A DNA stretch of 64,000 bases from Patescibacteria group bacterium (GTDB lineage Bacteria > Patescibacteriota > UBA1384 > 2-12-FULL-50-11). The stretch lies in contig BOKZ01000001.1 of NCBI GenBank assembly GCA_016861245.1, positions 280,962 through 344,961 on the forward strand, read 5' to 3'. Positions 9,777 to 63,889 of the stretch are shown here, piece by piece; within the stretch, counting starts at the first letter, position 1; every line of letters starts with the position of its first letter. Made by a program: the position numbers and the translations under genes. Under the pieces are notes generated by a model, which was not told the DNA's origin, searched no databases, and worked only from the letters and a program-made list of their open reading frames with translations.

Positions 9777-10169
9777 CCTTAAATGTCAATGGTTTGACCA
9801 AGAAAATGGAGATAAGTTGTTCCGTCAGAAACCTGCCCAGTACCCCACAAAAAGCACTAGTATCGACCAGACAAGAGAAATTACCGAAAGCACCCTGGAA
9901 AACTTAATTACCTGCAAGGCCTCTGCTGAAGTTGGCTCATTTTTGGCAGATCTCAGAAAAAAACGTTTATCTTCATAATTATTGGAACAACAGTAAGACA
10001 GAAAAGACCATATGTCGCGTAACTATTTAGCGCTTCGATAAAGGCGGGGAACCAAACTATACCAGCGATCGAGACTAAAAATGTGAGTTTCGCAAACAAG
10101 ATCATATGACGCTTGATTATCACTTTAGTAGCTTTTGGAAGTAATGAGATTATGTGGGGTCTCTTTCTG

Positions 10170-10187: not shown

Positions 10188-10313
10188 TGTCGCTGTGCTC
10201 CAACTTCTCAATCGCTTCGCTCATTCGCAGTCGAACCATAACGCAACGCGTTAGGTTCTCACCCTACCTATCGGATCGCAAACATCCCCACAGGAGTGGG
10301 TATATCTACAATG

Positions 10314-10400
10314 CGGAGAGGGAGGGATTCGAACCCTCGATACCCTTGCGGATATATCGCCTTTCCAAGGCGACGCACTAGGCCACTATGCGACCTCTCC
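10314..10400 (-). tRNA. tRNA-Ser(GGA), class II with a long variable arm.
   Basis: Manual fold: acceptor GGAGAGG/CCTCTCC, anticodon loop TTGGAAA, 18-nt variable arm, T-loop TTCGAAT, discriminator G. Confidence 0.8.
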
Positions 10401-40587: not shown

Positions 40588-41517
40588 TTATGACGGGATT
40601 TTTTTCTGTTTACTATATTTTGTAGTATCAAGTAAGGCCTTAATAAAATTATCAAACGAAATACCTGCTGCCGCCAACTCTTTATTGATAAGCGAGGTTT
40701 TTGTCATGCCTGGCAGCGTGTTTACTTCAAGAAAGTACGGAGTGTCGCCAACAAGAATCCAATCGATCCGACAATATTGGCTAATGCCGAACTTCTGAAA
40801 AATTTGTTTTGACATCGTTTGGATCTTATTACTTATACTTGTGCTGATCTCTGCCGGGCATATCTCTTGGCAGCCAGAGGTTTCGTCGTACTTCGCCTGA
40901 AAGTCGAAGTATTCTGAGTTGGGACGAATCTCTACAATTGGCAACGTTTGGATACTCCCGAAAAGATCAATCACTCCACACGATAACTCTCTACCGCTAA
41001 GGTATTCTTCTACTAGCACTTGCGGGTCATATTTTGCAGCGTTTTTTATTGCGGTGTTGAGTTGTACATTGTTGGTTACGATCGTTACGCCGAAGCTTGA
41101 ACCTTCTCGATTGGGTTTTATGACCATCGGGGAGTCTAGGCTTGGCACCTGATGTTTGTCTAATAACTCCCACCTTGCTGTTGGGATAGTTAAGTCGAAT
41201 ACTAACTGTTTAGCGCTGTTCTTGTCCCAGGCAAGCCGACAAGTATTTGAATCGGAGCCAGTATAATTAAGGTTTAGCTCTTGGAGTATCTCCTGTATGG
41301 CTCCGTTCTCTCCAATTCCTCCGTGAAGCGCGATTAGTACTACGTCTGGCTTTATTTCGATTAGTTGTTTTTCCCAGTCGGGAGCTGCCGGGTCAACTAC
41401 AGTATATTTAACGCCCGTTCTTCTTAGAGACTCTTGAATACTCCGTAAGGTCCACAACGAAACCTCTCGCTCAGAAGAATTGCCGCCCGCAAGCACTGTG
41501 ATCATTGGGGAATGCAT
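40588..41517 (-). CDS. ddl: D-alanine--D-alanine ligase.
   Basis: ITVLAGGNSSEREVSL N-domain and ATP-grasp core; 309 aa. Confidence 0.88.
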   Translation of the reverse strand: MHSPMITVLAGGNSSEREVSLWTLRSIQESLRRTGVKYTVVDPAAPDWEKQLIEIKPDVVLIALHGGIGENGAIQEILQELNLNYTGSDSNTCRLAWDKNSAKQLVFDLTIPTARWELLDKHQVPSLDSPMVIKPNREGSSFGVTIVTNNVQLNTAIKNAAKYDPQVLVEEYLSGRELSCGVIDLFGSIQTLPIVEIRPNSEYFDFQAKYDETSGCQEICPAEISTSISNKIQTMSKQIFQKFGISQYCRIDWILVGDTPYFLEVNTLPGMTKTSLINKELAAAGISFDNFIKALLDTTKYSKQKKIPS

Positions 41518-41572
41518 AAATTTAAATCATGGACCGCCGAGGTCTTTACCATAAGGCAACTGCTGTTCCGTG

Positions 41573-41645
41573 TGGGGGTGCATGGATTCGAACCATGGAC
41601 CACCAAGGTATAAGCTTGGCGCTCTAACCGCTGAGCTACACCCCC
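41573..41645 (-). tRNA. tRNA with anticodon UAU (Ile, AUA-reading).
   Basis: Manual fold: acceptor GGGGGTG/CACCCCC, D-arm GCTC-AGCGGTTA-GAGC, anticodon loop CTTATAC, T-loop TTCGAAT, discriminator A; no encoded CCA. Confidence 0.7.
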
Positions 41646-41659
41646 ACACGATCCAGCAG

Positions 41660-41730
41660 TAAGCTTGGCGCGCTACTAACTACTTTTAACAGTTAGGGCG
41701 CTTCAGCGCCGACCGCTGAGCTACGGACCC
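41660..41730 (-). repeat. Partial tRNA-like fragment (5'-half copy of the adjacent tRNA) immediately upstream of tRNA-Ile.
   Basis: It shares GTAGCTCAGCGGT and GCGCCAAGCTTA blocks with the intact tRNA but has no T-arm or 3' acceptor strand. Confidence 0.5.
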
Positions 41731-41929
41731 AGATTACAAATAGTATTGTACGGTTTTGAGGAAGTTATCTCAACCGAGAAAACTGATTTGACATCAAATC
41801 CGAGCTATGGTTACGTAAGTCCAGGCACCTTAGGGGAAAACTTCTAGGGAGCGTCAGTCGAGGGGAAAAGTGAGGGGCGAAGAAGTGAGAATGCACACTT
41901 CCGAGCTCATTAACAATATAAGGAGGAAC

Positions 41930-44125
41930 ATGAAGAATTTTCTTGTTCGTTTTACTGCTGTACTTCTGGCGTTCCAGGGATTGGTTGCTGCGCAACTTTT
42001 CACCCTTTCTGCAGCGCAAGCTGCAAATGGCGCTCCGGCAGTAGTAATTAACGAAGTAATGTGGATGGGTTCAAAAGACTCCGGCGGCAACCATAGCGCC
42101 GACGAGTGGATTGAGCTCTACAACAACAGTGACACAGCGGTCGATCTGACCGATTGGGTGCTAACAAACACGGGCTTAAATGCCGATACGCTTGATGGTC
42201 AAATTCTTAATCCAGGCGAGTACTTACTTATTAGTAATTACACTCCAGGAAATACTAGTAGCGTATTAAGCTCGGGTATCCCAAGCGTGATTGATCCAGA
42301 TATCAACCTACCCGGTGAGGATAGTTGCCCAGTTGGCGGTGTCGAATTAAAGGACAGTCTCGGGTTAGTAATCGATAAAGTTACCTGTTTCGGTGGTTCT
42401 TGGCCGGCGGGGCTGATGAATACCAATGAGCGCCGAGCGATGGAGCGAAGCTTCCCTTATAGCGAAGAACTCTGGCACACCTCAGTTGGATTCGTGAATA
42501 TGGAGGCTGACGCAAGGGGTTACACGTTTGCCACACCACTCGTAATCAACGATCGCACTCAAGTAGTTGCCGGTATCGTTAACGATGGAAGCGGCAGCGA
42601 CATCGATTGGACCGACGATACCAACAGCATCGATGTTAACTGGAGCGGCTTTTCCGATGATCAGTCTGGAATCGCCCACTACGAGGTTGGTTTAGGGACT
42701 ACCCCAACAACCGATGACTTTATGCCGTTTATAAACGTTGGGCTTGCAACATCGCACACATTTAACTATCCAGTTGAAATCAGCTCTGGTAGTTACTTTG
42801 CTCTTGTGCGCGTCACTAATGGCGCGGGAATTTCGAGCATCGTCGCAAGTGACGGCTATACGATCGATATCGTTAATCCTGAATCTCCAACGAACGTTGT
42901 AGTTACAGACGTACCAGCAGACAACGGCGGTAGCGTCGTAGTGAGTTGGGACGCATCAATTTCAGTCGATGAGATCACCTATCAGGTTAACTATCGTAAG
43001 CAAGGTACTGTCGATTGGACAAGCGTCTTGGTCGGTATGCACCTGTCGCATCAGATTAACGGCTTAGAGAATGCACCAACATTCTATGAGTTCACGGTTG
43101 AAGCGATCGACTTTAGTAACCGTCACTCGTTGCCAACCGCAATCGAAATTGGACAAGCACTCGACAACTTGGCGCCGATCTTAACGGTTTCTAAAATTGT
43201 TGTTGGGCAGAACAAGCCAACAACAGTCGACACTGTTTCCGGAATTGCTGGCGCAGTAAGCGAGAGCTCGACGGTAAGCGTTTTCGATCGTGACCCGTCG
43301 CTTCCAGGAGCGGTGTTGCTTGGCTCTGTTGTGACGAATATCGACGGCTCGTTTGCAAGTATCTCGATTGGCGACAATCAGTACGCAACCGTCTATCTGC
43401 AGGCGATCGATCTGGCCGGTAATCCTACGCCAGCCGTAGCCCTGCAAAACGATATCGTTGCACCGAACGCGCCTACGCTGCACAGCGCAACAGCTACGTG
43501 CCAAAGCGAGACGTGTCGAGTTGAGCTGCACTGGATCGATAACGGTCCAGACACTGCGACGTATCAAGTTGGTTACACGATTGACGGCGTTGAAAAACTG
43601 ACGCTATCGTCTAGCTCAACAGGAATCGCGCTCGACTTACCCTCCGGTAAGGGCGTCAGCTTCGTGGTTTACGCGTTTGATCAGTACGGTAATAAATCGG
43701 TTAAGAGTAACGTGATCTCGATCCAGCTAACAGCAGGTGTAAAAACTACAGCCACTTATCACTCTGGCTCGCAAAGCACAGTGACGGAAGCGATCCCAGG
43801 TAGTCGAGAGGTTGTGGAAGCCACGCCTTCTAGTGACGGATTAAATATCGTTCCACCAGCGCAAGCAGCAGAACCGGTTGACGGCGACGAGAGTAGCCAG
43901 TCGAGTCCAGTTAAAGACGCCAACGACCAAGACTGGTCGAGGATCTTTATCGTGATTCTTCTACTACTAATAGTAGCCGGCGGTTTTTACTCGCTCTCAC
44001 GAACATTTCGTGACGTTCCGGCCGACGAGCCGATTCTCCCAGTTACAGCTAAAAAGAAGGAAGAGTCCTCGAAGTCGAAAACGAAACCGGCGACGAAACC
44101 GAAGAATAAAAAGCGACGACGCTAA
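41930..44125 (+). CDS. Cell-surface protein with a lamin-tail domain (LTD), FN3/Ig-like repeats and a C-terminal TM anchor.
   Basis: LTD signature AVVINEVMWMG...DEWIELYNNSDTAVDLTDWVL; repeated beta-sandwich modules; C-terminal TM plus a KKRRR tail. ATG at 41930 sits behind an AGGAGG SD and is preferred over 41870. Confidence 0.7.
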   Translation: MKNFLVRFTAVLLAFQGLVAAQLFTLSAAQAANGAPAVVINEVMWMGSKDSGGNHSADEWIELYNNSDTAVDLTDWVLTNTGLNADTLDGQILNPGEYLLISNYTPGNTSSVLSSGIPSVIDPDINLPGEDSCPVGGVELKDSLGLVIDKVTCFGGSWPAGLMNTNERRAMERSFPYSEELWHTSVGFVNMEADARGYTFATPLVINDRTQVVAGIVNDGSGSDIDWTDDTNSIDVNWSGFSDDQSGIAHYEVGLGTTPTTDDFMPFINVGLATSHTFNYPVEISSGSYFALVRVTNGAGISSIVASDGYTIDIVNPESPTNVVVTDVPADNGGSVVVSWDASISVDEITYQVNYRKQGTVDWTSVLVGMHLSHQINGLENAPTFYEFTVEAIDFSNRHSLPTAIEIGQALDNLAPILTVSKIVVGQNKPTTVDTVSGIAGAVSESSTVSVFDRDPSLPGAVLLGSVVTNIDGSFASISIGDNQYATVYLQAIDLAGNPTPAVALQNDIVAPNAPTLHSATATCQSETCRVELHWIDNGPDTATYQVGYTIDGVEKLTLSSSSTGIALDLPSGKGVSFVVYAFDQYGNKSVKSNVISIQLTAGVKTTATYHSGSQSTVTEAIPGSREVVEATPSSDGLNIVPPAQAAEPVDGDESSQSSPVKDANDQDWSRIFIVILLLLIVAGGFYSLSRTFRDVPADEPILPVTAKKKEESSKSKTKPATKPKNKKRRR

Positions 44126-44189
44126 ACGCGCAGAAAAACGATCTCGAAAGGGATCGTTTTTTTGTTGGCGAGTATGCTAGTCTGAGGCA

Positions 44190-44582
44190 ATGGTAGTAGA
44201 GAAGAGTAAAAAATTTCTGACCTACGCAGCTGTTGTCGCGCTATTCCTTTTTGCGCTTTACTCAAATATCCGATTGATCGTGCGTAACTATAACTTGCAA
44301 AAGCGAGTTGAAATTGTCCGAGCGGAAGTGAATCAAATGCAAACACGTAACGAAAAATTACGACTAATCCTCTCCTACTATCAAACACCTGCCTATCAAG
44401 AAATCGAGGCGCGTCGGCGACTGCAGGTAAAAAAACCCGAAGAAACAGTACTGACGGTGAAGGGATTAAATCTGAGCGCTGAAGAGCTTAACCTTTTAGA
44501 GGACGCGGTTTACCAAGAGCACGCCACCACAGAGGTCGAGGAGAAAACAAATTTCCAGAAATGGTGGGAGTATTTGTTTTAG
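44190..44582 (+). CDS. FtsB/DivIC-like septum formation initiator (TM plus coiled coil).
   Basis: A single N-terminal TM followed by a heptad coiled coil; size fits. Confidence 0.45.
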   Translation: MVVEKSKKFLTYAAVVALFLFALYSNIRLIVRNYNLQKRVEIVRAEVNQMQTRNEKLRLILSYYQTPAYQEIEARRRLQVKKPEETVLTVKGLNLSAEELNLLEDAVYQEHATTEVEEKTNFQKWWEYLF

Positions 44583-44656
44583 TGGCAAGGGTGGGGAACG
44601 ATCCCACGACCTCGGGCTTATGAGTCCCGCGCTCTAACCAACTGAGCTACCTTGCC
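44583..44656 (-). tRNA. tRNA-Met/Ile2 (anticodon CAU), elongator type.
   Basis: Acceptor GGCAAGG/CCTTGCC with G1-C72, D-arm GCTC-AGTTGGTTA-GAGC, anticodon loop CTCATAA. The T-loop reads ATCGTTC, which is non-canonical (A54). Confidence 0.6.
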
Positions 44657-44659
44657 AAA

Positions 44660-44719
44660 TTGTGAGGAGTGAGCGCGAGCGAAATAAGTGCTTCGCTCTC
44701 ACCACTGAGCTACACCGGC
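44660..44719 (-). repeat. Partial tRNA-like fragment (acceptor plus D-arm only) immediately upstream of tRNA-Met.
   Basis: GCCGGTGTAGCTCAGTGGTGAGAGCG followed by a non-tRNA sequence. Confidence 0.45.
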
Positions 44720-44834
44720 ATTAATTGTATTAACAGAAGAATTGTACCAATCTTCTTCGAGTAAATAAAGGTAAATCCCTTGATTTAACCGATGCTTTTC
44801 GTCATACTTTGCAGAACATTCGGAGCACTTTTAT

Positions 44835-45404
44835 ATGAGAATATTTCGTGCAAAAGAAACGATCGTCGTAGACCATCTTTCTAGCGAAAGAGTACAACTC
44901 CCCAGCGAGTGTGTAGTTTTTGAGTTTAGTCAGCCCGAATGGGCACAGCTGAACTGCGAAGACGCGACCTGGATCATCGATCGCGGCTGCGCGACCGAGT
45001 ACATCGGCTCAACGCAACTACTGCGAGTCTATGTGAGCTTTCTCACGTATAAGCGGCGATGGCTGGCGTTTAGGGAAGTTGTCTCGACGCATTTGCCGCT
45101 GCCGGCGGCTCTTGGGTTATTCTCGATGATTCGGCACCAGCCGTTCGAGTTAACTGGTAAAGCTGCGTTCGACCTGCTCTCGTTCCTGTTCGTCGATCTC
45201 TCAGGCGCAATGCGCCGTGGCGGAAAGTGGCAGTTTCGACCGGAGACAAACTATCAAGTGCGCGGAGTTCCTGAGAAATGGTGCATCGCCGTTAAAGTAC
45301 CAGACGACCTCGTCGGTCTACTGATCGGCCCAAGCGGTCGCACTATTGCTCGCGTTGAAGAGTTCACCGACTACATCAAAAACCGCATCTCATTTCGCGA
45401 CTAA
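44835..45404 (+). CDS. GC-rich hypothetical protein with a C-terminal KH domain.
   Basis: VPDDLVGLLIGPSGRTIARVEE (KH GxxG loop). GC about 57%. Terminator at 45407-45430. Confidence 0.5.
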   Translation: MRIFRAKETIVVDHLSSERVQLPSECVVFEFSQPEWAQLNCEDATWIIDRGCATEYIGSTQLLRVYVSFLTYKRRWLAFREVVSTHLPLPAALGLFSMIRHQPFELTGKAAFDLLSFLFVDLSGAMRRGGKWQFRPETNYQVRGVPEKWCIAVKVPDDLVGLLIGPSGRTIARVEEFTDYIKNRISFRD

Positions 45405-45436
45405 CCAGCCCCTTCTCGGGGCTTTTTCTTTACCTG

Positions 45437-45496
45437 TAGCGGGGGCACGATTTCGTAAGAAACGTGACCACTTGTTCTTGTAGCGGGGGCACGATT
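45437..45496. repeat. Two tandem 17-nt copies (45437-45453, 45480-45496) of the 3' end of the tRNA-Met at 50111-50181. Candidate attR of an integrated element.
   Basis: GTAGCGGGGGCACGATT occurs at 45437, 45480 and 50110 (inside the tRNA T-arm/acceptor). Confidence 0.7.
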
Positions 45497-46065
45497 TTGA
45501 GCAATAGGCTCAAAACGTTGCACGATACTCGTGCTACGCACTCGTCTTCTCGCTCACTTGTTCGCTCGCAGTCGCACGTGTTTTTCTGACGAAAAACAAC
45601 GTTCAAATCTTGCCCGTATTAAGCAAAATACCTCCAGTTGGAGGTATTTTACATAGTAGTCGGGAGTGGAAACCTCTCGAACTTTGGAACTTACTGGTTT
45701 CTAGTCTTCCCTCTCTTATTACTTGCGTGGAAGAGCTACGGAATATCGATATTATTGCCGACGAAGAAGAAGTGGTCTTGGTCCCCCTTTCCGCCCTTTA
45801 GGCGTTCTGGTAGGGTTTGCTCATAAATGGCAAGTCAAGAACCAGCTAACAACATTCCCAACCTGTCACAAACGCTTGCGGATATAGACACAAGCGGTCC
45901 ACCACCACCTGCAAATCAGGCAACAACTGAAAATGGTGAGATCGTTAATCTTAACGACAACCCGAAAAGCGTTGTAAATAAGTAATACAAGAAATTGCTC
46001 GAACTGATGATGGGTCAAAATCTACCTCTGTTAAGCATGAGAGAAAAACTGTAATATAACCACAG

Positions 46066-46800
46066 ATGGCTTCCTCAGATACCGTGGATAAAGTTAGAAA
46101 CAGCATAGCTCTTGTAATAACGCTTAACGCCCAGAATAAAGTCACTGGCAAGGGAAGTGGTTTTGTCTTTTATCGCCCCGGGCTTCTTGTGACCTGCAAT
46201 CACGTTGTTGGGAGTGATGATAACGTGAAAATAAGACTAGTTGATTCATCCGCAGATTTCATTGAAGCAAAAGTCGCCATTAGGGATGAAGAACATGATT
46301 TAGCTCTCCTTAAGTACGATGCAACGAAATCACCCGACTCTCTTCCCTTAAAACCCTTAGAGCAGTCAAAGATAATAGAGGGCATACCGGTTCTGTTCGC
46401 AGGATATCCACTGGGTTTATTTACCCTAACGACTCACCAGGGTTTGCTATCGGGTATCACTAAGGATTCAACGGGCATTACTACATACTTGATTGATGGA
46501 ACAGTAAATTCTGGAAATAGCGGATGCCCCCTTATGGACCAAGACGGTAATGTTATAGGGGTGGTTAACGCAAAGAGACGAGAGCGGAACGACCTGCTTA
46601 ATCGGGTTGAGGAGTTGCAGCTTGGGGCACTTTCGCTACACGGGATTGATTTGGTTGAATTGTACCAAGCTTTGATTAGTAACGTACAATTAGGTATGGG
46701 CTACGCAGTACCGTGCTCGTATATCCCCTCTTATAAAGAGACTGAAGAGCCTGTAGTAGCTACTCAAGCTCAGGCGAAACAAAAGAGAGAAAAGAAGTAG
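46066..46800 (+). CDS. Trypsin-like (S1/HtrA-type) serine peptidase domain protein, with no signal peptide.
   Basis: Catalytic triad contexts TCNHVV (His), DLALLK (Asp), GNSGCPL (Ser). Confidence 0.7.
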   Translation: MASSDTVDKVRNSIALVITLNAQNKVTGKGSGFVFYRPGLLVTCNHVVGSDDNVKIRLVDSSADFIEAKVAIRDEEHDLALLKYDATKSPDSLPLKPLEQSKIIEGIPVLFAGYPLGLFTLTTHQGLLSGITKDSTGITTYLIDGTVNSGNSGCPLMDQDGNVIGVVNAKRRERNDLLNRVEELQLGALSLHGIDLVELYQALISNVQLGMGYAVPCSYIPSYKETEEPVVATQAQAKQKREKK

Positions 46801-47103
46801 ATGGAAAAATATATTTTTAGATCAAACGGCCAGTATATGGGCTTTATAGTAAATAATTATCTCTTTTCTCGTGATAACGCCTACCTGGGTTGGGTTGAAG
46901 CAGATAACGTTTGGGATGCAGGAGGTAACTTCAGGGGAAAGCTAATAGAAATCACTGGTCATGCCTACATACTGAGAAGTATGTTTACTGTCAGTCCTAT
47001 CCCAAAGCCTCCGAAACCATTCCCTCGTCCCGTCCAATTGCCGACTCCACAACCTAATATCTTGCCAATAATACCGCCTATCGGTTATCAAGACGGATTC
47101 TAG
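46801..47103 (+). CDS. Hypothetical protein, translationally coupled to the protease (TAGATG overlap).
   Basis: ORF only; proline-rich C-terminus. Confidence 0.4.
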   Translation: MEKYIFRSNGQYMGFIVNNYLFSRDNAYLGWVEADNVWDAGGNFRGKLIEITGHAYILRSMFTVSPIPKPPKPFPRPVQLPTPQPNILPIIPPIGYQDGF

Positions 47104-47369
47104 TTTATAGGGCTATAGTTAGGCTTATTATTTTCGGCACTCGGTTGCCGATATTCGTCATATCTGGTAAATTTTATAGTAGTAACTTAGACAATTAGTT
47201 GGACTTAACCCGTGGGTAATACCTACGGTATGGCCATAAAAATCTCTCACAAGTAGTAAGCTCGTCGTTCAGAGCACTTGTGAGAGTCACGTCTCGAAAG
47301 GGGCGTGGGTGCTTCGGCTATCGCAGGCGGCGAGCTTTTTGCTACCCGCCAGCACCAACAAGGAGGTAA

Positions 47370-47936
47370 ATGGAAGTGGCGGAAAAGAAAATTAAGGCTG
47401 ACCAACACAGCCAGTATTGGACCTTTACGATCTTAGCGTTATTGATTCCCGTTGTCGGAATCGTTATGGGGATTATCTACTTGTCCAAACCGGACAAGCT
47501 CGATAAAAAAGTCGGCGAACACAGCATAGCGGTTAGTATCTTTGGACTGATTGCCTACGGGATATTAATCGGCGTATTGAATGCTAATGGAACCCCTATA
47601 GTGGGCGTCCCGGCCGTTACGATACCCTCAGTAACAACCCCTATTACAACTCCGGCAGTATCAGCAGCCAGTAAAATAACTTTGTCGAACAACTCCGTTA
47701 AAGAGAGTTACGGTCTTTGGCAGATAGTTGGCGAAGCAAAGAATACTGACAGTGCTGCCCATACTTTTATCATTTCTGCCACTTTCTACGGAACTGATGG
47801 CAAGATAGTTGGGACAGCTACTGGTAATGTTAATGACTTGGCGGCTGGGGACACTAAAACCTACACTTTATTGTCTTCTGACAACCTTACTGGCTACAAA
47901 GACTATAAAGTGCAAATCTCGACTATGATTCAGTAG
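47370..47936 (+). CDS. Membrane-anchored beta-sandwich (DUF4352-like) hypothetical protein.
   Basis: N-terminal TM; Thr/Pro linker; C-terminal FxxTxxG beta-domain. Confidence 0.4.
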   Translation: MEVAEKKIKADQHSQYWTFTILALLIPVVGIVMGIIYLSKPDKLDKKVGEHSIAVSIFGLIAYGILIGVLNANGTPIVGVPAVTIPSVTTPITTPAVSAASKITLSNNSVKESYGLWQIVGEAKNTDSAAHTFIISATFYGTDGKIVGTATGNVNDLAAGDTKTYTLLSSDNLTGYKDYKVQISTMIQ

Positions 47937-47971
47937 TAAATACACAAGATTTTAGAAGGACTTGCCTTAGT

Positions 47972-48418
47972 CTATTTTGCATCGAGGGAGTCTTGGTCAA
48001 TTCCTAGACTATTTTTTAGCTCCTCAATCATCCGCTGACCATGTTGTTGTTGCTCGGGGCTTGGATCGGTTGACCTAGGGAACTTGTTCTTTAATTTGAG
48101 TGCCAACGTTATTGCTTGAAGGCGGATAGAGTGGTCCGTAATCCAGTACCTAGACCCGTTCGCAATGAATAGCTTTTTAGCTTCCGTTGCCTCTTTAAGC
48201 CCCTTAACCAACTCGATGTCACTTAACCCAGACTCATCAAGTAATTCAGTTAGGTTAAGTTTGTTTAAGTTTTTTGACCCAACCACGGCAGCCGAGGCTC
48301 TATCTACGCAGTCGTAAGCAGCTACGGCGGCTTCAGTCGCGTTGCCGGTAGCTAAATAGAATTTCGCCCAAGTTTTTTGTTTGAGGGTCTTAGGTGGGTG
48401 AGCTGCTACGGAATTCAT
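47972..48418 (-). CDS. Phage terminase small subunit-like protein (Terminase_2/P27 family).
   Basis: LKQKTWAKFYLATGNATEAAVAAY matches the family N-terminal signature (L..KQ..F..EY...GNAT.AA..AGY). Confidence 0.6.
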   Translation of the reverse strand: MNSVAAHPPKTLKQKTWAKFYLATGNATEAAVAAYDCVDRASAAVVGSKNLNKLNLTELLDESGLSDIELVKGLKEATEAKKLFIANGSRYWITDHSIRLQAITLALKLKNKFPRSTDPSPEQQQHGQRMIEELKNSLGIDQDSLDAK

Positions 48419-48440
48419 TATTTGTACTAAAGCAGGTAAG

Positions 48441-50141
48441 TTGTTGGAGGAAAAGAAGATGGATACTAACTGGACTCTTGAAACTTTACGAAACTACTTT
48501 GTAGAGTCATTTGCGAGTAAGAATGAGGTCTCAAAAGAAGACTATAAATATGTAATTTATGCTCGCAAGTCAACCGACGACAAAGACAAGCAGTCCTGCT
48601 CCTTATCCGATCAGGTCAAGGAATGTAAGAAGTATGCGGCTAGTGTGGGACTAGTGGTTGTAGGTAAGCCTATAGAGGAAAAGAAATCCGCAAAAAAATC
48701 GGGACAAAGACCAAAGTTTGATGAAATATTAAACATGATCTCTACTGGTAAGATTCACGGCATTATTTCCTGGCACCCAGATCGACTTAGCAGAAATATG
48801 AAAGAAGCCGGAATAATTATTGAAATGCTGGATGAGGGGAAAATAAAAGATCTTCGTTTTGTAACTCAACAGTTTGATAACTCCGCAAGTGGAAAAATGA
48901 TGCTTGCCATCTCCTTCGCAATTAGTAAGCAATATTCAGATAACATGAGTGTAAATATTACTCGTGGGTCTAAGAACCGACTCTATGAAGGTCATGGGAT
49001 GTACCCAGTCCATGGCTACTATAAGGATGGAGATAACTTTTTAAGGCCCGATGGAGCAAATCACGATCTGTTAAGAGAAGCGTTCCAAATGAGATTAGGC
49101 GGTGAAACCCACGCAGCTATTTGCGAGTTCTTGAATACTTCCGGATATCAAAAAGCCAGAGGGATGGGTGTGGTCAAGCACATAACATTCAAATGGACAC
49201 CGGGTAAACTTTCAGAGCAGTTCTCTAATCCCATCTTTGCGGGGCTGCAACTACATGGCAAGGATGTAGTTAATCTTGTTGACCTTTACAACTTTGAACC
49301 CCTAATTACACCGGAGCAGTATGTAATGATTAGTTCGCTAGGAAAGAATCAAGGCTTTCTTAAGAAACACCGGAGCAAGAAAAAAAAGATAGCCCAATTA
49401 CTAAATGGGAAAATTCTTTGCGGATATTGTAAACGGCCGATGCATGCCAGCATGACCACAAAAAAGCCTAAAAATGGCCAAACAGAAAAGTCTCTTTATT
49501 TGTTTTACCGCTGCCCTTACGGCGATTGTCCTTTCTTTGCTGAATGGGAAAAGTTTAAGGCTAAGAAAAGACACCACCTGCATGTCAAGGCCAGAGTGAT
49601 AGTTAACTTTGCCCAAGAACAGCTGACACATTTGAAAGTAAACTCCGAAGAAACCTTCAACAGCCAAATTGCTGGATTGAAAGCCGAAGCCGCAAGCAAT
49701 ATCCAAAAACTCCAAGTCAAGAAGACAAACTTAGAGCGTCAACGTGTCAGCAAGAAGGATCATATTCTTTCGTTGCAAGAAGCGGTAAAGAATATTGATA
49801 CTAAGGTTGTCTCAGAATTCCAATCAGATTTAGATAATGAGATAAAGTCACTTACTCAAATTAAATTCGCAATCGCTGAAGTTGAGGAAGCAATTGAGAT
49901 AAGTCAGACGGCAGTACCTACATACAAGGATTTCCTCGAACTTATAGCTTCCCTACCAGTTAAATTGCAGTATGCAAAAATGCTATTAGCTAAAGATAGA
50001 ATACTAAGTTCTATATTCTCGAACTTTTATGTAACAGATAAGGGCGTGCAAGGGTTTACGCTCGCTGAACCATATGCAAGCCTACTTGTGCCTCAAAATG
50101 TTCGTTCTCGTAGCGGGGGCACGATTCGAACGTGCGCCTAG
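48441..50141 (+). CDS. Large serine recombinase (integrase).
   Basis: Resolvase catalytic domain YARKSTDDKDKQSCSLSDQ with DRLSRN. Recombinase domain, CGYCKRP/RCPYGDCP zinc ribbon and a coiled coil. Ends inside the tRNA-Met. Confidence 0.85.
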   Translation: MLEEKKMDTNWTLETLRNYFVESFASKNEVSKEDYKYVIYARKSTDDKDKQSCSLSDQVKECKKYAASVGLVVVGKPIEEKKSAKKSGQRPKFDEILNMISTGKIHGIISWHPDRLSRNMKEAGIIIEMLDEGKIKDLRFVTQQFDNSASGKMMLAISFAISKQYSDNMSVNITRGSKNRLYEGHGMYPVHGYYKDGDNFLRPDGANHDLLREAFQMRLGGETHAAICEFLNTSGYQKARGMGVVKHITFKWTPGKLSEQFSNPIFAGLQLHGKDVVNLVDLYNFEPLITPEQYVMISSLGKNQGFLKKHRSKKKKIAQLLNGKILCGYCKRPMHASMTTKKPKNGQTEKSLYLFYRCPYGDCPFFAEWEKFKAKKRHHLHVKARVIVNFAQEQLTHLKVNSEETFNSQIAGLKAEAASNIQKLQVKKTNLERQRVSKKDHILSLQEAVKNIDTKVVSEFQSDLDNEIKSLTQIKFAIAEVEEAIEISQTAVPTYKDFLELIASLPVKLQYAKMLLAKDRILSSIFSNFYVTDKGVQGFTLAEPYASLLVPQNVRSRSGGTIRTCA

Positions 50142-50181
50142 TGGTTATGAGCCACTCGAGGTACCATTCCTCCACCCCGCT
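50111..50181 (-). tRNA. tRNA-Met (anticodon CAU), the integration target.
   Basis: Similar to bacterial tRNA-fMet (AGCGGGGTGGAG...CTCATAA...TTCGAAT...CCCCGCTA), but with A1-U72 and only two GC pairs at the base of the anticodon stem, so initiator identity is uncertain. Confidence 0.7.
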
Positions 50182-63775: not shown

Positions 63776-63818
63776 TCGAGCTAGCGCTCGGTTCCCTCTT
63801 TTGTAGTAATAATCATTG

Positions 63819-63889
63819 AGCGGGAGACGGGAATCGAACCCGCGTCACCTGCTTGGAAGGCAGGAGTTCTACCATTGAACCACTCCCGC
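63819..63889 (-). tRNA. tRNA-Gly(UCC).
   Basis: Acceptor GCGGGAG/CTCCCGC, anticodon loop CTTCCAA, T-loop TTCGATT. Confidence 0.8.

What the first reader, a model, noticed from the sequence alone, without database searches (positions are those of the whole stretch)
41573..44719. Two tRNA genes each preceded by a partial copy of their own 5' half
A fragment bearing the acceptor/D-arm, and in one case anticodon-stem, blocks of the downstream tRNA sits upstream of tRNA-Ile(UAU) at 41660-41730. Another sits upstream of tRNA-Met(CAU) at 44660-44719. Neither fragment has a T-arm.

With the 3'-end duplications at tRNA-Ser, tRNA-Gly and tRNA-Met(50111), all six tRNA loci in the window show partial duplications. 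That is far more than chance. It suggests very active tRNA-targeting integrases, some of which recombine within the 5' half, or some other recombination process.
Basis: seen in the sequence. Interest (0 to 1): 0.6.

Follow-up and report, generated by a model that had tools for sequence, protein, structure and literature searches.

The report
Orphan halves of replaced tRNA genes
The two fragments are left-over front halves of older tRNA genes that were cut at the anticodon when a compact piece of DNA carrying a complete replacement tRNA took their place, and in other Patescibacteria the same process has built tRNA genes nested inside tRNA genes up to five deep.

Summary
Both fragments are real and sit at the stated coordinates, but neither is a copy of the tRNA downstream of it.

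- **Fragment 1 (41660-41730, minus strand).** It is nt 1-35 of a different tRNA-Ile(UAU) allele, with a 35-nt hairpin insert in the D-loop. A 95%-identical relative still holds the matching 3' half downstream of the working tRNA.
- **Fragment 2 (44687-44719).** It is nt 1-33 of a tRNA-Met allele that is complete at the same spot in three relatives.
- **Shared architecture.** In relatives and in about ten other Patescibacteria the tRNA-Ile locus reads: promoter, 5' half ending C32-U-U-A35, leader strand, complete tRNA, complementary trailer strand, small hairpin, 3' half. Nesting reaches 3-5 levels. An intact "empty-site" gene exists in L072.

My reading is that a promoterless tRNA cassette inserts site-specifically into the anticodon loop of the resident gene, replaces its function and leaves orphan halves. 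In this window the 3' halves were later deleted.

The inserting enzyme is unknown. I found no published description of this arrangement.

It does not fit these two loci.

The parts
41745..41773 (-). Sigma-70-like promoter (TTGAGA, 17 nt, TACAAT) that drives the whole tRNA-Ile locus. It lies upstream of the orphan 5' half.
   Evidence: 10 of 12 matches, and no promoter-like site between fragment and tRNA. The same sequence sits directly before the tRNA in L075 and before the outer 5' half in L001 and L003.
41660..41730 (-). Orphan 5' half (nt 1-35, ending C32-U-U-A35) of a tRNA-Ile(UAU) allele with acceptor GGGTCCG.
   Evidence: The matching 3' half (..CGGACUCA) is kept in L001 at 9905-9944. 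The joined halves, minus inserts, are called tRNA-Ile(tat). Acceptor pairing is 7/7 between the outer halves against 4/7 with the inner tRNA.
41676..41710 (-). 35-nt insert in the D-loop of the orphan half. It forms two hairpins (GGCGC-UGAA-GCGCC and CUAACU-N9-AGUUAG).
   Evidence: Both hairpins form in the minimum-energy fold. The insert is single copy in the sequence held. Hairpin inserts occur at the same D-loop place in the orphan halves of L003, L006, L009, L012, L013 and L017.
41646..41659 (-). Leader strand of the inserted cassette (CUGCUGGAUCGUGU).
   Evidence: It pairs with the trailer at -18.0 kcal/mol, z = -4.3 against shuffles, and is in the fold.
41573..41645 (-). Working tRNA-Ile(UAU), the cargo of the cassette.
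   Evidence: ARAGORN. Rfam tRNA model 74.8 bits. Identical to the un-nested tRNA-Ile of L075.
41560..41572 (-). Trailer strand (CACGGAACAGCAG), complementary to the leader.
41546..41559 (-). Small hairpin at the 3' end of the cassette (UUGCC-UUA-UGGUAA).
   Evidence: A hairpin of unrelated sequence occupies the same position in L001, L003, L005, L006, L007, L009 and L012.
41507..41542 (-). Decayed, hybrid 3' remnant: the 3' strand of the anticodon stem from the GGGTCCG allele, fused to an older T-arm and acceptor remnant. The ddl start codon (41515-41517) lies inside it.
   Evidence: Alignment A2. L001 has two separate 3' pieces here and the window has one fused piece. Its T-loop differs from the L001 counterpart almost only by G/C-to-A/T transitions (read).
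44724..44750 (-). Promoter-like region of the tRNA-Met locus (TGGTACAAT and a second TACAAT), upstream of the orphan half.
   Evidence: Read. The region is the same in L001, L002 and L077. The simple scan did not list it.
44687..44719 (-). Orphan 5' part (nt 1-33) of tRNA-Met allele 'A' (acceptor GCCGGUG).
   Evidence: 33/33 identical to the complete tRNA-Met at the same place in L001 and L075. L077 has the intact allele alone, next to divIC.
44657..44686 (-). 30-nt spacer. It is an imperfect inverted copy of nt ~16-28 of the orphan half and locks that half into a hairpin.
   Evidence: Fold (stem GAGCGAA/UUCGCUC extended by GUGAG/CUCAC). Single copy.
44583..44656 (-). Working tRNA-Met allele 'B' (acceptor GGCAAGG). 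Its 3' end abuts the divIC stop codon.
   Evidence: Only its 3' part (from nt 35) remains in L001 and L075.

Best explanation
Both fragments are the orphaned 5' parts of earlier resident tRNA genes. A compact, promoterless piece of DNA carrying a complete tRNA of the same specificity entered the resident gene in the anticodon loop and took over its function.

**tRNA-Ile locus.** The entry point is after A35. The cassette has four parts:
- a 14-nt leader;
- a complete tRNA-Ile(UAU);
- a 13-nt trailer that pairs with the leader and extends the acceptor stem;
- a small hairpin.

The resident gene's promoter now drives one transcript. In it the old 5' half is a structured leader, and the inner tRNA is presumably cut out by the ordinary tRNA-processing enzymes. 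Because the cassette's own tRNA offers the same target again, repeated insertion builds nested, Russian-doll loci. The old 3' halves lie downstream, are dispensable, and are lost by deletion. That has happened in this window.

**tRNA-Met locus.** A 30-nt spacer plus allele B replaced nt 34-73 of allele A. Close relatives hold the reciprocal state.

**Shown:** the nesting, the matching halves, the filled and empty sites, the break position, the covarying leader/trailer helix, and the turnover among near-identical genomes.

**Inferred:** that the cassette is a mobile, site-specific element, and that the outer copies no longer work. The enzyme is unknown.
For: **The halves belong together**
- Removing the inserts in silico makes ARAGORN call tRNA-Ile(tat) for all seven outer genes tested (L001, L003, L005, L006, L007, L009 level 1, L013 level 1). 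The window's fragment joined to the L001 3' half is also called tRNA-Ile(tat).
- The acceptor strands of the two outer halves pair 7/7 in 7 of 8 nests. Cross-pairing with the inner tRNA usually gives 4-5.

**Filled and empty sites**
- L072/L073 carry the intact GGGAGUG tRNA-Ile at the syntenic place.
- L077 carries intact tRNA-Met A next to divIC.

**Same architecture and same break (after C32-U-U-A35)**
- It holds in L001, L003, L005, L006 and L007.
- It also holds in species representatives named Berkelbacteria, Woesebacteria, Gottesmanbacteria, Saccharibacteria and 'Patescibacteria group' (L009, L012, L013, L017, L030, L033, L034, L038, L040). L009 and L013 have 3 levels and L017 has 5.

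**Leader/trailer helix**
- Duplex energy averages -15.4 kcal/mol in 11 nested cassettes against -4.1 in 128 other tRNAs (Mann-Whitney p = 6e-8).
- At least seven unrelated helix sequences occur.

**Orientation**
- Among 129 tRNAs, copies of 5' halves occur only upstream (9) and copies of 3' halves only downstream (12). The reverse controls gave 0 and 2.

**Promoter**
- The promoter lies upstream of the orphan half.

**The extras are dispensable**
- L075, which is 95-97% identical to the window, has the same tRNA-Ile directly behind the promoter, with no orphan half or leader.

**Turnover**
- At tRNA-Met, genomes 95-99% identical hold alternative states.
Against: - No recombinase, endonuclease or transposase was found in or next to either locus.
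- No free or circular cassette was seen.
- The non-tRNA parts are single copy in about 170 kb.
- Scans of viral contigs and of JGI metagenomes returned only chance matches.
- In L003, L006 and L009 the non-tRNA and orphan parts are 86-89% identical while the flanking coding DNA is 65-75% identical. One acceptor pair and one D-loop-insert hairpin pair differ by compensatory changes. This could mean the outer RNA is under selection rather than a relic.
- The tRNA-Met locus has no leader/trailer helix. Its right junction lies at the tRNA 3' end, so it may arise by a different route.
- No single event converts the L001 state into the window state.
Confidence: 0.68

Rival explanations
1. The outer split gene is still a working gene. 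The insert is a new kind of bacterial tRNA intron that happens to carry a tRNA. The leader/trailer helix brings the exon ends together, the insert is removed, and the halves are ligated or stay paired as a two-piece RNA. One transcript would then yield two tRNAs or a tRNA-like RNA.
For: - The outer acceptor stems remain 7/7 paired, with compensatory differences between L003 and L009 and between L005 and L007.
- The outer anticodon loops are restorable in 7 of 8 nests (read).
- Whole nests are much better conserved (86-91%) than the flanking genes (65-75%).
- The insert sits at 35/36. That is the position of the self-splicing group I introns of Patescibacteria (PMC13011429) and of the tRNA-Asn intron in this window.
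Against: - No ribozyme or Rfam family was found at either locus at E<=10.
- There is no bulge-helix-bulge geometry, because a hairpin sits between the helix and the 3' exon.
- RNase P and RNase Z would cut at the inner tRNA, leaving 14 and about 30 extra nt on the exons.
- The 3' halves are lost or decayed in the window and in L017. L009 has a T-stem mismatch at level 1 and a 6-nt loop at level 0.
- D-loop inserts of 35-55 nt would also need removal.
- L075 does without all of it.
Confidence: 0.12
2. These are ordinary scars of integrase-driven islands or prophages that target the anticodon loop and carry their own tRNA copy. The bodies of the elements were later deleted, leaving short remnants.
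For: - The same window holds a serine-recombinase element at tRNA-Met(50110), and short inserts flanked by 17-nt 3'-end repeats at tRNA-Ser and tRNA-Gly.
- GAGCGA-rich tracts lie next to displaced tRNA pieces at several loci, including the tRNA-Met spacer in L001 and the leaders of the Saccharibacteria-type cases.
- tRNA gene fragments from integration are a well-known class (PMC9897764).
Against: - An integrase crossover yields hybrid tRNAs at the junction. It does not yield a complete foreign tRNA nested between two matching halves.
- The inserts are only 120-150 nt, with the same four-part layout in unrelated lineages. Random deletion of element bodies would not recreate that layout.
- The complementary leader and trailer are not expected from attachment-site arms.
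- No integrase remnant is present at either locus.
Confidence: 0.15
3. This is the first reader's literal reading: each tRNA gene partially duplicated its own 5' half in tandem, and the copy then decayed.
For: 13-nt and 12-nt exact blocks are shared by fragment 1 and tRNA-Ile.
Against: - The shared blocks are the generic D-arm and the anticodon stem that all these tRNA-Ile alleles have in common.
- The acceptor strands differ at 3 of 7 positions (Ile) and 5 of 7 (Met).
- Fragment 2 equals a different complete gene in L001, L075 and L077.
- Matching 3' halves exist downstream in relatives.
Confidence: 0.03
4. Chance resemblance, or an assembly artefact from mixed strains.
For: Taken singly, the short exact blocks have blast E-values of 0.05-0.2.
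Against: - The same structures occur in independent assemblies from at least ten samples (Logan, JGI, NCBI, ENA), base for base.
- The halves can be reconstituted into a tRNA.
- The architecture is conserved across classes.
Confidence: 0.02

Closest known systems
tRNA gene fragments left by integrating elements (attL/attR repeats of phages, genomic islands and ICEs; reviewed in PMC9897764)
   Same: A mobile insertion into a tRNA gene that brings replacement tRNA sequence, so that function is kept and a displaced piece of the old gene is left behind. This window holds a textbook case at tRNA-Met(50110).
   Different: - Here a whole tRNA, not just the 3' part, is brought in.
- It lies between both halves of the old gene, so a 5' orphan is made as well as a 3' one.
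- The insert is 120-150 nt, with no integrase.
- The junction shares 0-3 nt.
- The insert carries a leader/trailer helix, and insertions are recursive.
Group I introns at position 35/36 of tRNA-Asn and tRNA-Asp in Patescibacteria (Nakagawa et al. 2026, PMC13011429)
   Same: Same phylum, same site in the anticodon loop, promoterless insert inside a transcribed tRNA gene, patchy distribution among close relatives. One such intron, with an HNH gene, is in this window's tRNA-Asn.
   Different: - There is no group I catalytic core.
- The base before the insert is A35, not U, and the insert ends in A, not G.
- The insert carries a tRNA.
- There is no evidence that the exons are rejoined.
Disrupted tRNA genes of Archaea and algae (intron-containing, split and permuted tRNA genes; PMC4390854, PMC4090602)
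   Same: tRNA genes are interrupted at or near the anticodon loop, and complementary sequences flank the interruption.
   Different: - Those depend on a bulge-helix-bulge motif plus the splicing endonuclease and a ligase.
- No such motif is seen here, and the host is bacterial.
- The interrupting sequence is itself a complete tRNA of the same specificity.
Hairpin-ended single-strand transposons (IS200/IS605 family and their miniature derivatives)
   Same: Insertion immediately 3' of a fixed short sequence (here CUUA) without a clear target duplication, a hairpin close to the right end, small size, and dependence on an enzyme supplied in trans.
   Different: - No transposase was found.
- The non-tRNA parts are single copy rather than repeated through the genome.
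- No matching left-end hairpin is present.
- This comparison rests on my own knowledge of the family. It is a lead, not a test.

Membership tests
tRNA (Rfam RF00005), for the fragments themselves | Complete cloverleaf scoring at or above the curated threshold | tested here: not met
   No tRNA match over 41646-41731 or 44657-44720 even at E<=10. ARAGORN finds only the downstream genes.
Split tRNA gene (two halves of one tRNA separated by an insert) | The 5' and 3' pieces reconstitute a canonical tRNA when the insert is removed | tested here: met
   Met for all seven outer genes tested: L005 and L007 directly, and L001, L003, L006, L009 and L013 after the D-loop insert was also removed. L006 is called with a 4-base anticodon. 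The window's 5' piece joined to the L001 3' piece is also called tRNA-Ile. In the window itself the acceptor 3' strand is deleted.
Integrase attachment-site duplication | Direct repeat identical to part of the adjacent tRNA, flanking an element that encodes a recombinase | tested here: not met
   - The fragments are not identical to the adjacent tRNA.
- They lie 14 and 30 nt from it, with no gene between.
- By contrast the feature is met for tRNA-Met(50110): 17-nt repeats and a serine recombinase at 48441-50141.
Group I intron in a tRNA anticodon loop | Catalytic core recognised by RF00028 | tested here: not met
   No RF00028 match at 41500-41900 or 44500-44900 at E<=10. The model does find the tRNA-Asn intron at 36270-36540.
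Group I intron in a tRNA anticodon loop | Insertion inside the anticodon loop (35/36 in Patescibacteria) | tested here: met
   The tRNA-Ile halves end at A35 and resume at U36 in 10 or more nests.
Archaeal-type spliced or split tRNA | Bulge-helix-bulge motif at the exon-intron boundaries, plus the splicing endonuclease | tested here: inconclusive
   By inspection the 5' boundary lies in a 4-5-nt single strand, and the 3' boundary follows an extra hairpin, so there are no 3-nt bulges 4 bp apart. No formal motif search was run, and the endonuclease was not searched for.
Miniature transposon (MITE, or REP-like element) | Many copies per genome; terminal inverted repeats at the very ends | tested here: not met
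   - All non-tRNA parts are single copy in the window plus seven loci.
- The inverted repeat (leader/trailer) is internal to the 3' hairpin.
- Only about 170 kb was available, so copy number genome-wide is untested.
Self-targeting mobile tRNA cassette (proposed here) | Filled and empty sites, a constant insertion point, a conserved cassette layout, recursion | tested here: met
Self-targeting mobile tRNA cassette (proposed here) | An identified enzyme, or a free intermediate, that moves it | not testable with these tools
   No candidate gene lies at the loci. Whole genomes and read data are not available here.

The most novel reading that the evidence does not exclude
Patescibacteria harbour a previously undescribed kind of selfish or semi-selfish element. 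It is a promoterless cassette of about 130 nt, consisting of a tRNA-Ile(UAU) gene clamped by a leader/trailer helix and followed by a hairpin. It homes into position 35/36 of resident tRNA-Ile(UAU) genes and survives by replacing the essential gene it destroys. Because it carries its own target, it nests recursively. A bolder variant is that the nests are true tRNA-bearing introns, spliced by an unknown bacterial pathway.
Probability: 0.4. Interest if true: 0.9.

Novelty: new variant of a known kind. Interest (0 to 1): 0.77.

Why it matters
- **A new way to insert into an essential gene.** If the cassette is mobile, it shows a third way for an element to sit in an essential single-copy gene without killing the host. 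The known ways are to splice out (introns, inteins) or to restore the missing part (attachment sites). This one brings a whole spare gene.
- **Fast tRNA turnover.** It would explain why tRNA-Ile(UAU) and tRNA-Met alleles differ so much between genomes that are 95-99% identical. It also gives a record of past replacements that can be read like strata.
- **Annotation.** The orphan halves are invisible to tRNA finders, and nests could be mis-called as pseudogenes.
- **An open question becomes testable.** One can now ask whether bacteria have any protein-dependent way of handling interrupted tRNA transcripts. Several nests keep both halves intact.

Tried and rejected
- **Rfam at a permissive threshold on both loci.** Nothing beyond the real tRNAs. 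A weak Yfr1 match (14 bits) and snoRNA matches are noise.
- **Viral contigs scanned with the nest signature.** Seven matches, all chance, with no 5' half upstream.
- **JGI metagenome scan with AGTAGCGCRCCRAGCTTA.** Nineteen matches, all chance, in unrelated coding DNA.
- **High-copy miniature element.** Rejected for the sequence held, where every non-tRNA part is unique.
- **Inversion between the two tRNA-Met states.** Rejected by inspection. The reverse complement of the A 3' part does not resemble the B 5' part, and only a short GAG-rich motif is shared (sequences).
- **One deletion between the orphan half and the inner tRNA as the origin of the clean L075 locus.** Rejected by reasoning, because it would give mismatched acceptor strands.
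- **Integron attC-like, bulge-helix-bulge and hammerhead readings of the three-way junction.** No conserved core nucleotides were seen by inspection.
- **Literature searches.** Five of the eight searches looked for nested, tRNA-interrupted or matryoshka tRNA genes. They returned only the group I intron papers and reviews of archaeal disrupted tRNAs.


Full report
**What is in the window**

All tRNA genes are on the minus strand:
- tRNA-Ser at 10313-10400;
- tRNA-Ile(UAU) at 41573-41645;
- tRNA-Met at 44583-44656;
- a second tRNA-Met at 50110-50181;
- tRNA-Gly at 63818-63889.

Rfam adds a group I intron at 36270-36540 and a LOOT RNA at 47202-47322. The neighbouring genes are ddl, an L,D-transpeptidase, a lamin-tail-domain protein, divIC, a small weakly KH-like protein and ftsH. 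The best named Ddl relatives are from Patescibacteria and Berkelbacteria.

**Checking the observation**

Read on the minus strand, 41730-41660 runs as follows:
- GGGUCCG, UA, GCUC, AGCGGUC;
- a 35-nt insert;
- UAGCGCGCCAAGCUUA.

That is an acceptor strand, a D-arm broken by an insert, the 5' strand of the anticodon stem, and C32-U-U-A35.

Positions 44719-44687 read GCCGGUGUAGCUCAGUGGUGAGAGCGAAGCACU, which is nt 1-33 of a tRNA. A 30-nt spacer follows.

Neither piece has a T-arm, and neither scores as a tRNA even at E<=10.

They are not copies of their neighbours:
- Fragment 1 shares only the generic D-arm block (13 nt) and the anticodon-stem block (12 nt) with tRNA-Ile.
- Fragment 2 shares 10 nt with tRNA-Met. 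It actually resembles tRNA-Ile more (21/23).

**Relatives give the answer for tRNA-Ile**

Syntenic loci were fetched through Ddl homologues and through homologues of the KH-like protein.

In L001, about 95% identical in DNA, the working tRNA-Ile is followed by these parts:
- the trailer;
- a hairpin;
- AUACCUCGGCGGUUCAUGGUUCAAAUCCAUGCGGACUCA, a 3' half whose acceptor strand pairs 7/7 with fragment 1.

The same layout holds in L003, L005, L006 and L007, with other sequences: promoter, 5' half ending CUUA, leader, complete tRNA-Ile(UAU), trailer, hairpin, 3' half.

When the inserts are removed in silico, ARAGORN calls every outer gene tested tRNA-Ile(tat). It does the same for the window's fragment joined to the L001 3' half. 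Outer 5' and 3' acceptor strands pair 7/7 in seven of eight nests, while cross-pairing with the inner tRNA usually gives 4-5.

L072 and L073 carry the intact, uninterrupted GGGAGUG gene at the syntenic site. This is the empty site.

In the window the two 3' remnants seen in L001 have been fused and partly deleted. They leave 41507-41542, which now holds the ddl start codon.

**How widespread it is**

A signature scan of one genome per species returned 36 loci. About a quarter are true nests, and all of those are Patescibacteria:
- L009 has three levels, with both sets of halves kept.
- L013 (Woesebacteria) has three levels.
- L012 is from Gottesmanbacteria.
- L017 (Berkelbacteria) has four stacked 5' halves before the working gene and only one decayed 3' half.
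- L030, L033, L034, L038 and L040 are Saccharibacteria-type cases with a different, GAG-rich leader.
- L015 (WWE3) may be a further nest with decayed halves. That rests on a strong leader/trailer duplex and my reading of its flanks, and I did not count it.

The remaining loci are chance matches of the 6-nt anchor.

Among 129 tRNAs in all the loci held:
- copies of 5' halves occur only upstream (9, all tRNA-Ile);
- copies of 3' halves occur only downstream (12);
- the reverse controls gave 0 and 2.

**The cassette**

Leader and trailer are complementary in every tRNA-Ile nest of the first type. Mean duplex energy is -15.4 kcal/mol, against -4.1 for 128 other tRNAs (p = 6e-8). At least seven unrelated helix sequences occur.

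A hairpin of unrelated sequence always follows the trailer.

The 5' half ends in A35. By my reading of the junctions, the last base of the insert is A in 9 of 11, and the junctions share 0-3 nt.

The only good promoter-like site lies upstream of the orphan half. The cassette is therefore promoterless, and the orphan half is transcribed as a leader. The predicted fold of the whole transcript keeps the D-loop hairpins, the helix stacked on the inner acceptor stem, and the 3' hairpin (z = -5.4).

The non-tRNA parts are single copy.

**tRNA-Met**

- L077, a more distant relative (71-79% DNA identity over the coding flanks), has one intact allele A directly next to divIC.
- The window, L002 and L078-L085 have A nt 1-33, the 30-nt spacer and a complete allele B. 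B's 3' end sits exactly where A's 3' end was.
- L001 and L075 have the reciprocal state: complete A, then CUCAUA, 38 nt, and B from nt 35.

The spacer is an imperfect inverted copy of nt ~16-28 of the orphan half and locks that half in a hairpin. There is no leader/trailer helix here. I could not derive one state from the other by a single event. One possible route is re-invasion followed by deletion between the orphan half and the new copy.

**Relic or functional?**

For a relic:
- L075 (95-97% identical) has the same tRNA-Ile directly behind the promoter, with none of the extras.
- The 3' halves are lost in the window and in L017.
- L009 shows a T-stem mismatch and a shortened loop.
- No ribozyme or known splicing motif is present.

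For a function:
- In L003, L006 and L009 the orphan halves, inserts, helices and hairpins are 86-89% identical, while the flanking genes are 65-75% identical.
- One acceptor pair and one pair in the first D-loop-insert hairpin differ by compensatory changes.

Recent horizontal spread, with co-conversion of the neighbouring exon sequence, would explain the same facts. I cannot separate the two readings with these tools.

The recurrent hairpin inserts in the D-loops of orphan halves remain unexplained. They appear in at least five lineages and never in working genes.

**Comparison with what is known**

tRNA gene fragments left by integrating elements are well known (PMC9897764). They account for the 17-nt repeats at tRNA-Ser, tRNA-Gly and tRNA-Met(50110).

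Group I introns at 35/36 of tRNA-Asn and tRNA-Asp are known in this phylum (PMC13011429). This window has one, with an HNH gene, and the spliced product is called tRNA-Asn.

Neither paper mentions nested tRNAs, and neither did five literature searches aimed at them.

**Verdict**

The 'own 5' half' reading is wrong. The 'recombination at tRNA genes' reading is right in spirit. The two fragments are the visible tip of a recurrent tRNA-in-tRNA replacement process whose agent is still unknown.

Noticed in passing
window 36222-36813 (minus strand): tRNA-Asn(GUU) is split at 35/36 by a 517-nt group I intron (36263-36779) that holds an HNH endonuclease reading frame. The exons are 36813-36780 and 36262-36222, and the spliced product is called tRNA-Asn. 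Relatives L005-L007 and L072 have the intronless gene. This matches Nakagawa et al. 2026.
   Followed up: yes
window 45453-50109, repeats at 45436-45452, 45480-45496 and 50110-50126: A 4.6-kb element is inserted at the 3' end of tRNA-Met(50110). It carries a large serine recombinase (48441-50141) whose end overlaps the tRNA, a trypsin-like protease, and the LOOT RNA (47202-47322). It is absent from all ten close relatives, which keep only the 27-nt insert between two 17-nt repeats.
   Followed up: partly
window 10188-10312 and 63776-63817 (minus strand): Short inserts (125 and 42 nt) separate tRNA-Ser and tRNA-Gly from exact 17-nt copies of their own 3' ends. They are too small to be elements. 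Both contain GAGCG-type tracts like those beside other displaced tRNA pieces (L001, L006, L033, L038, L040, L070).
   Followed up: partly
window 41780-41930 (plus strand), upstream of the lamin-tail-domain gene: The 5' untranslated region of the lamin-tail-domain gene is nearly identical over about 80 nt between the window, L001 and L003, although coding DNA is only about 76% identical. No Rfam family matches it. It may be an unrecognised regulatory RNA.
   Followed up: no
window 41515-41517; L075 2689-3075: The ddl start codon lies inside a decayed tRNA 3' remnant. In the 95-97%-identical L075 the whole ddl gene is deleted right next to the tRNA-Ile locus.
   Followed up: partly
window 44617-44629 compared with L002 6816-6832: The working tRNA-Met B differs between the window (CGGGA...GCCCG) and L002/L078 (CGGCA...CGCCG) by a compensatory swap in the anticodon stem. 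These genomes are otherwise 97-99% identical.
   Followed up: no
L070 4100-4415: The other tRNA-Met (AGCGGGG type) of this relative is interrupted after C-U-C-A35, again at 35/36, by an insert of about 250 nt that looks like a group I intron. I did not test it with a model.
   Followed up: no
L002 15054-20930: A prophage-like block (serine recombinase, terminase, ParB-methylase) lies next to the tRNA-Asn position in L002. It is absent from the window and from L001.
   Followed up: no
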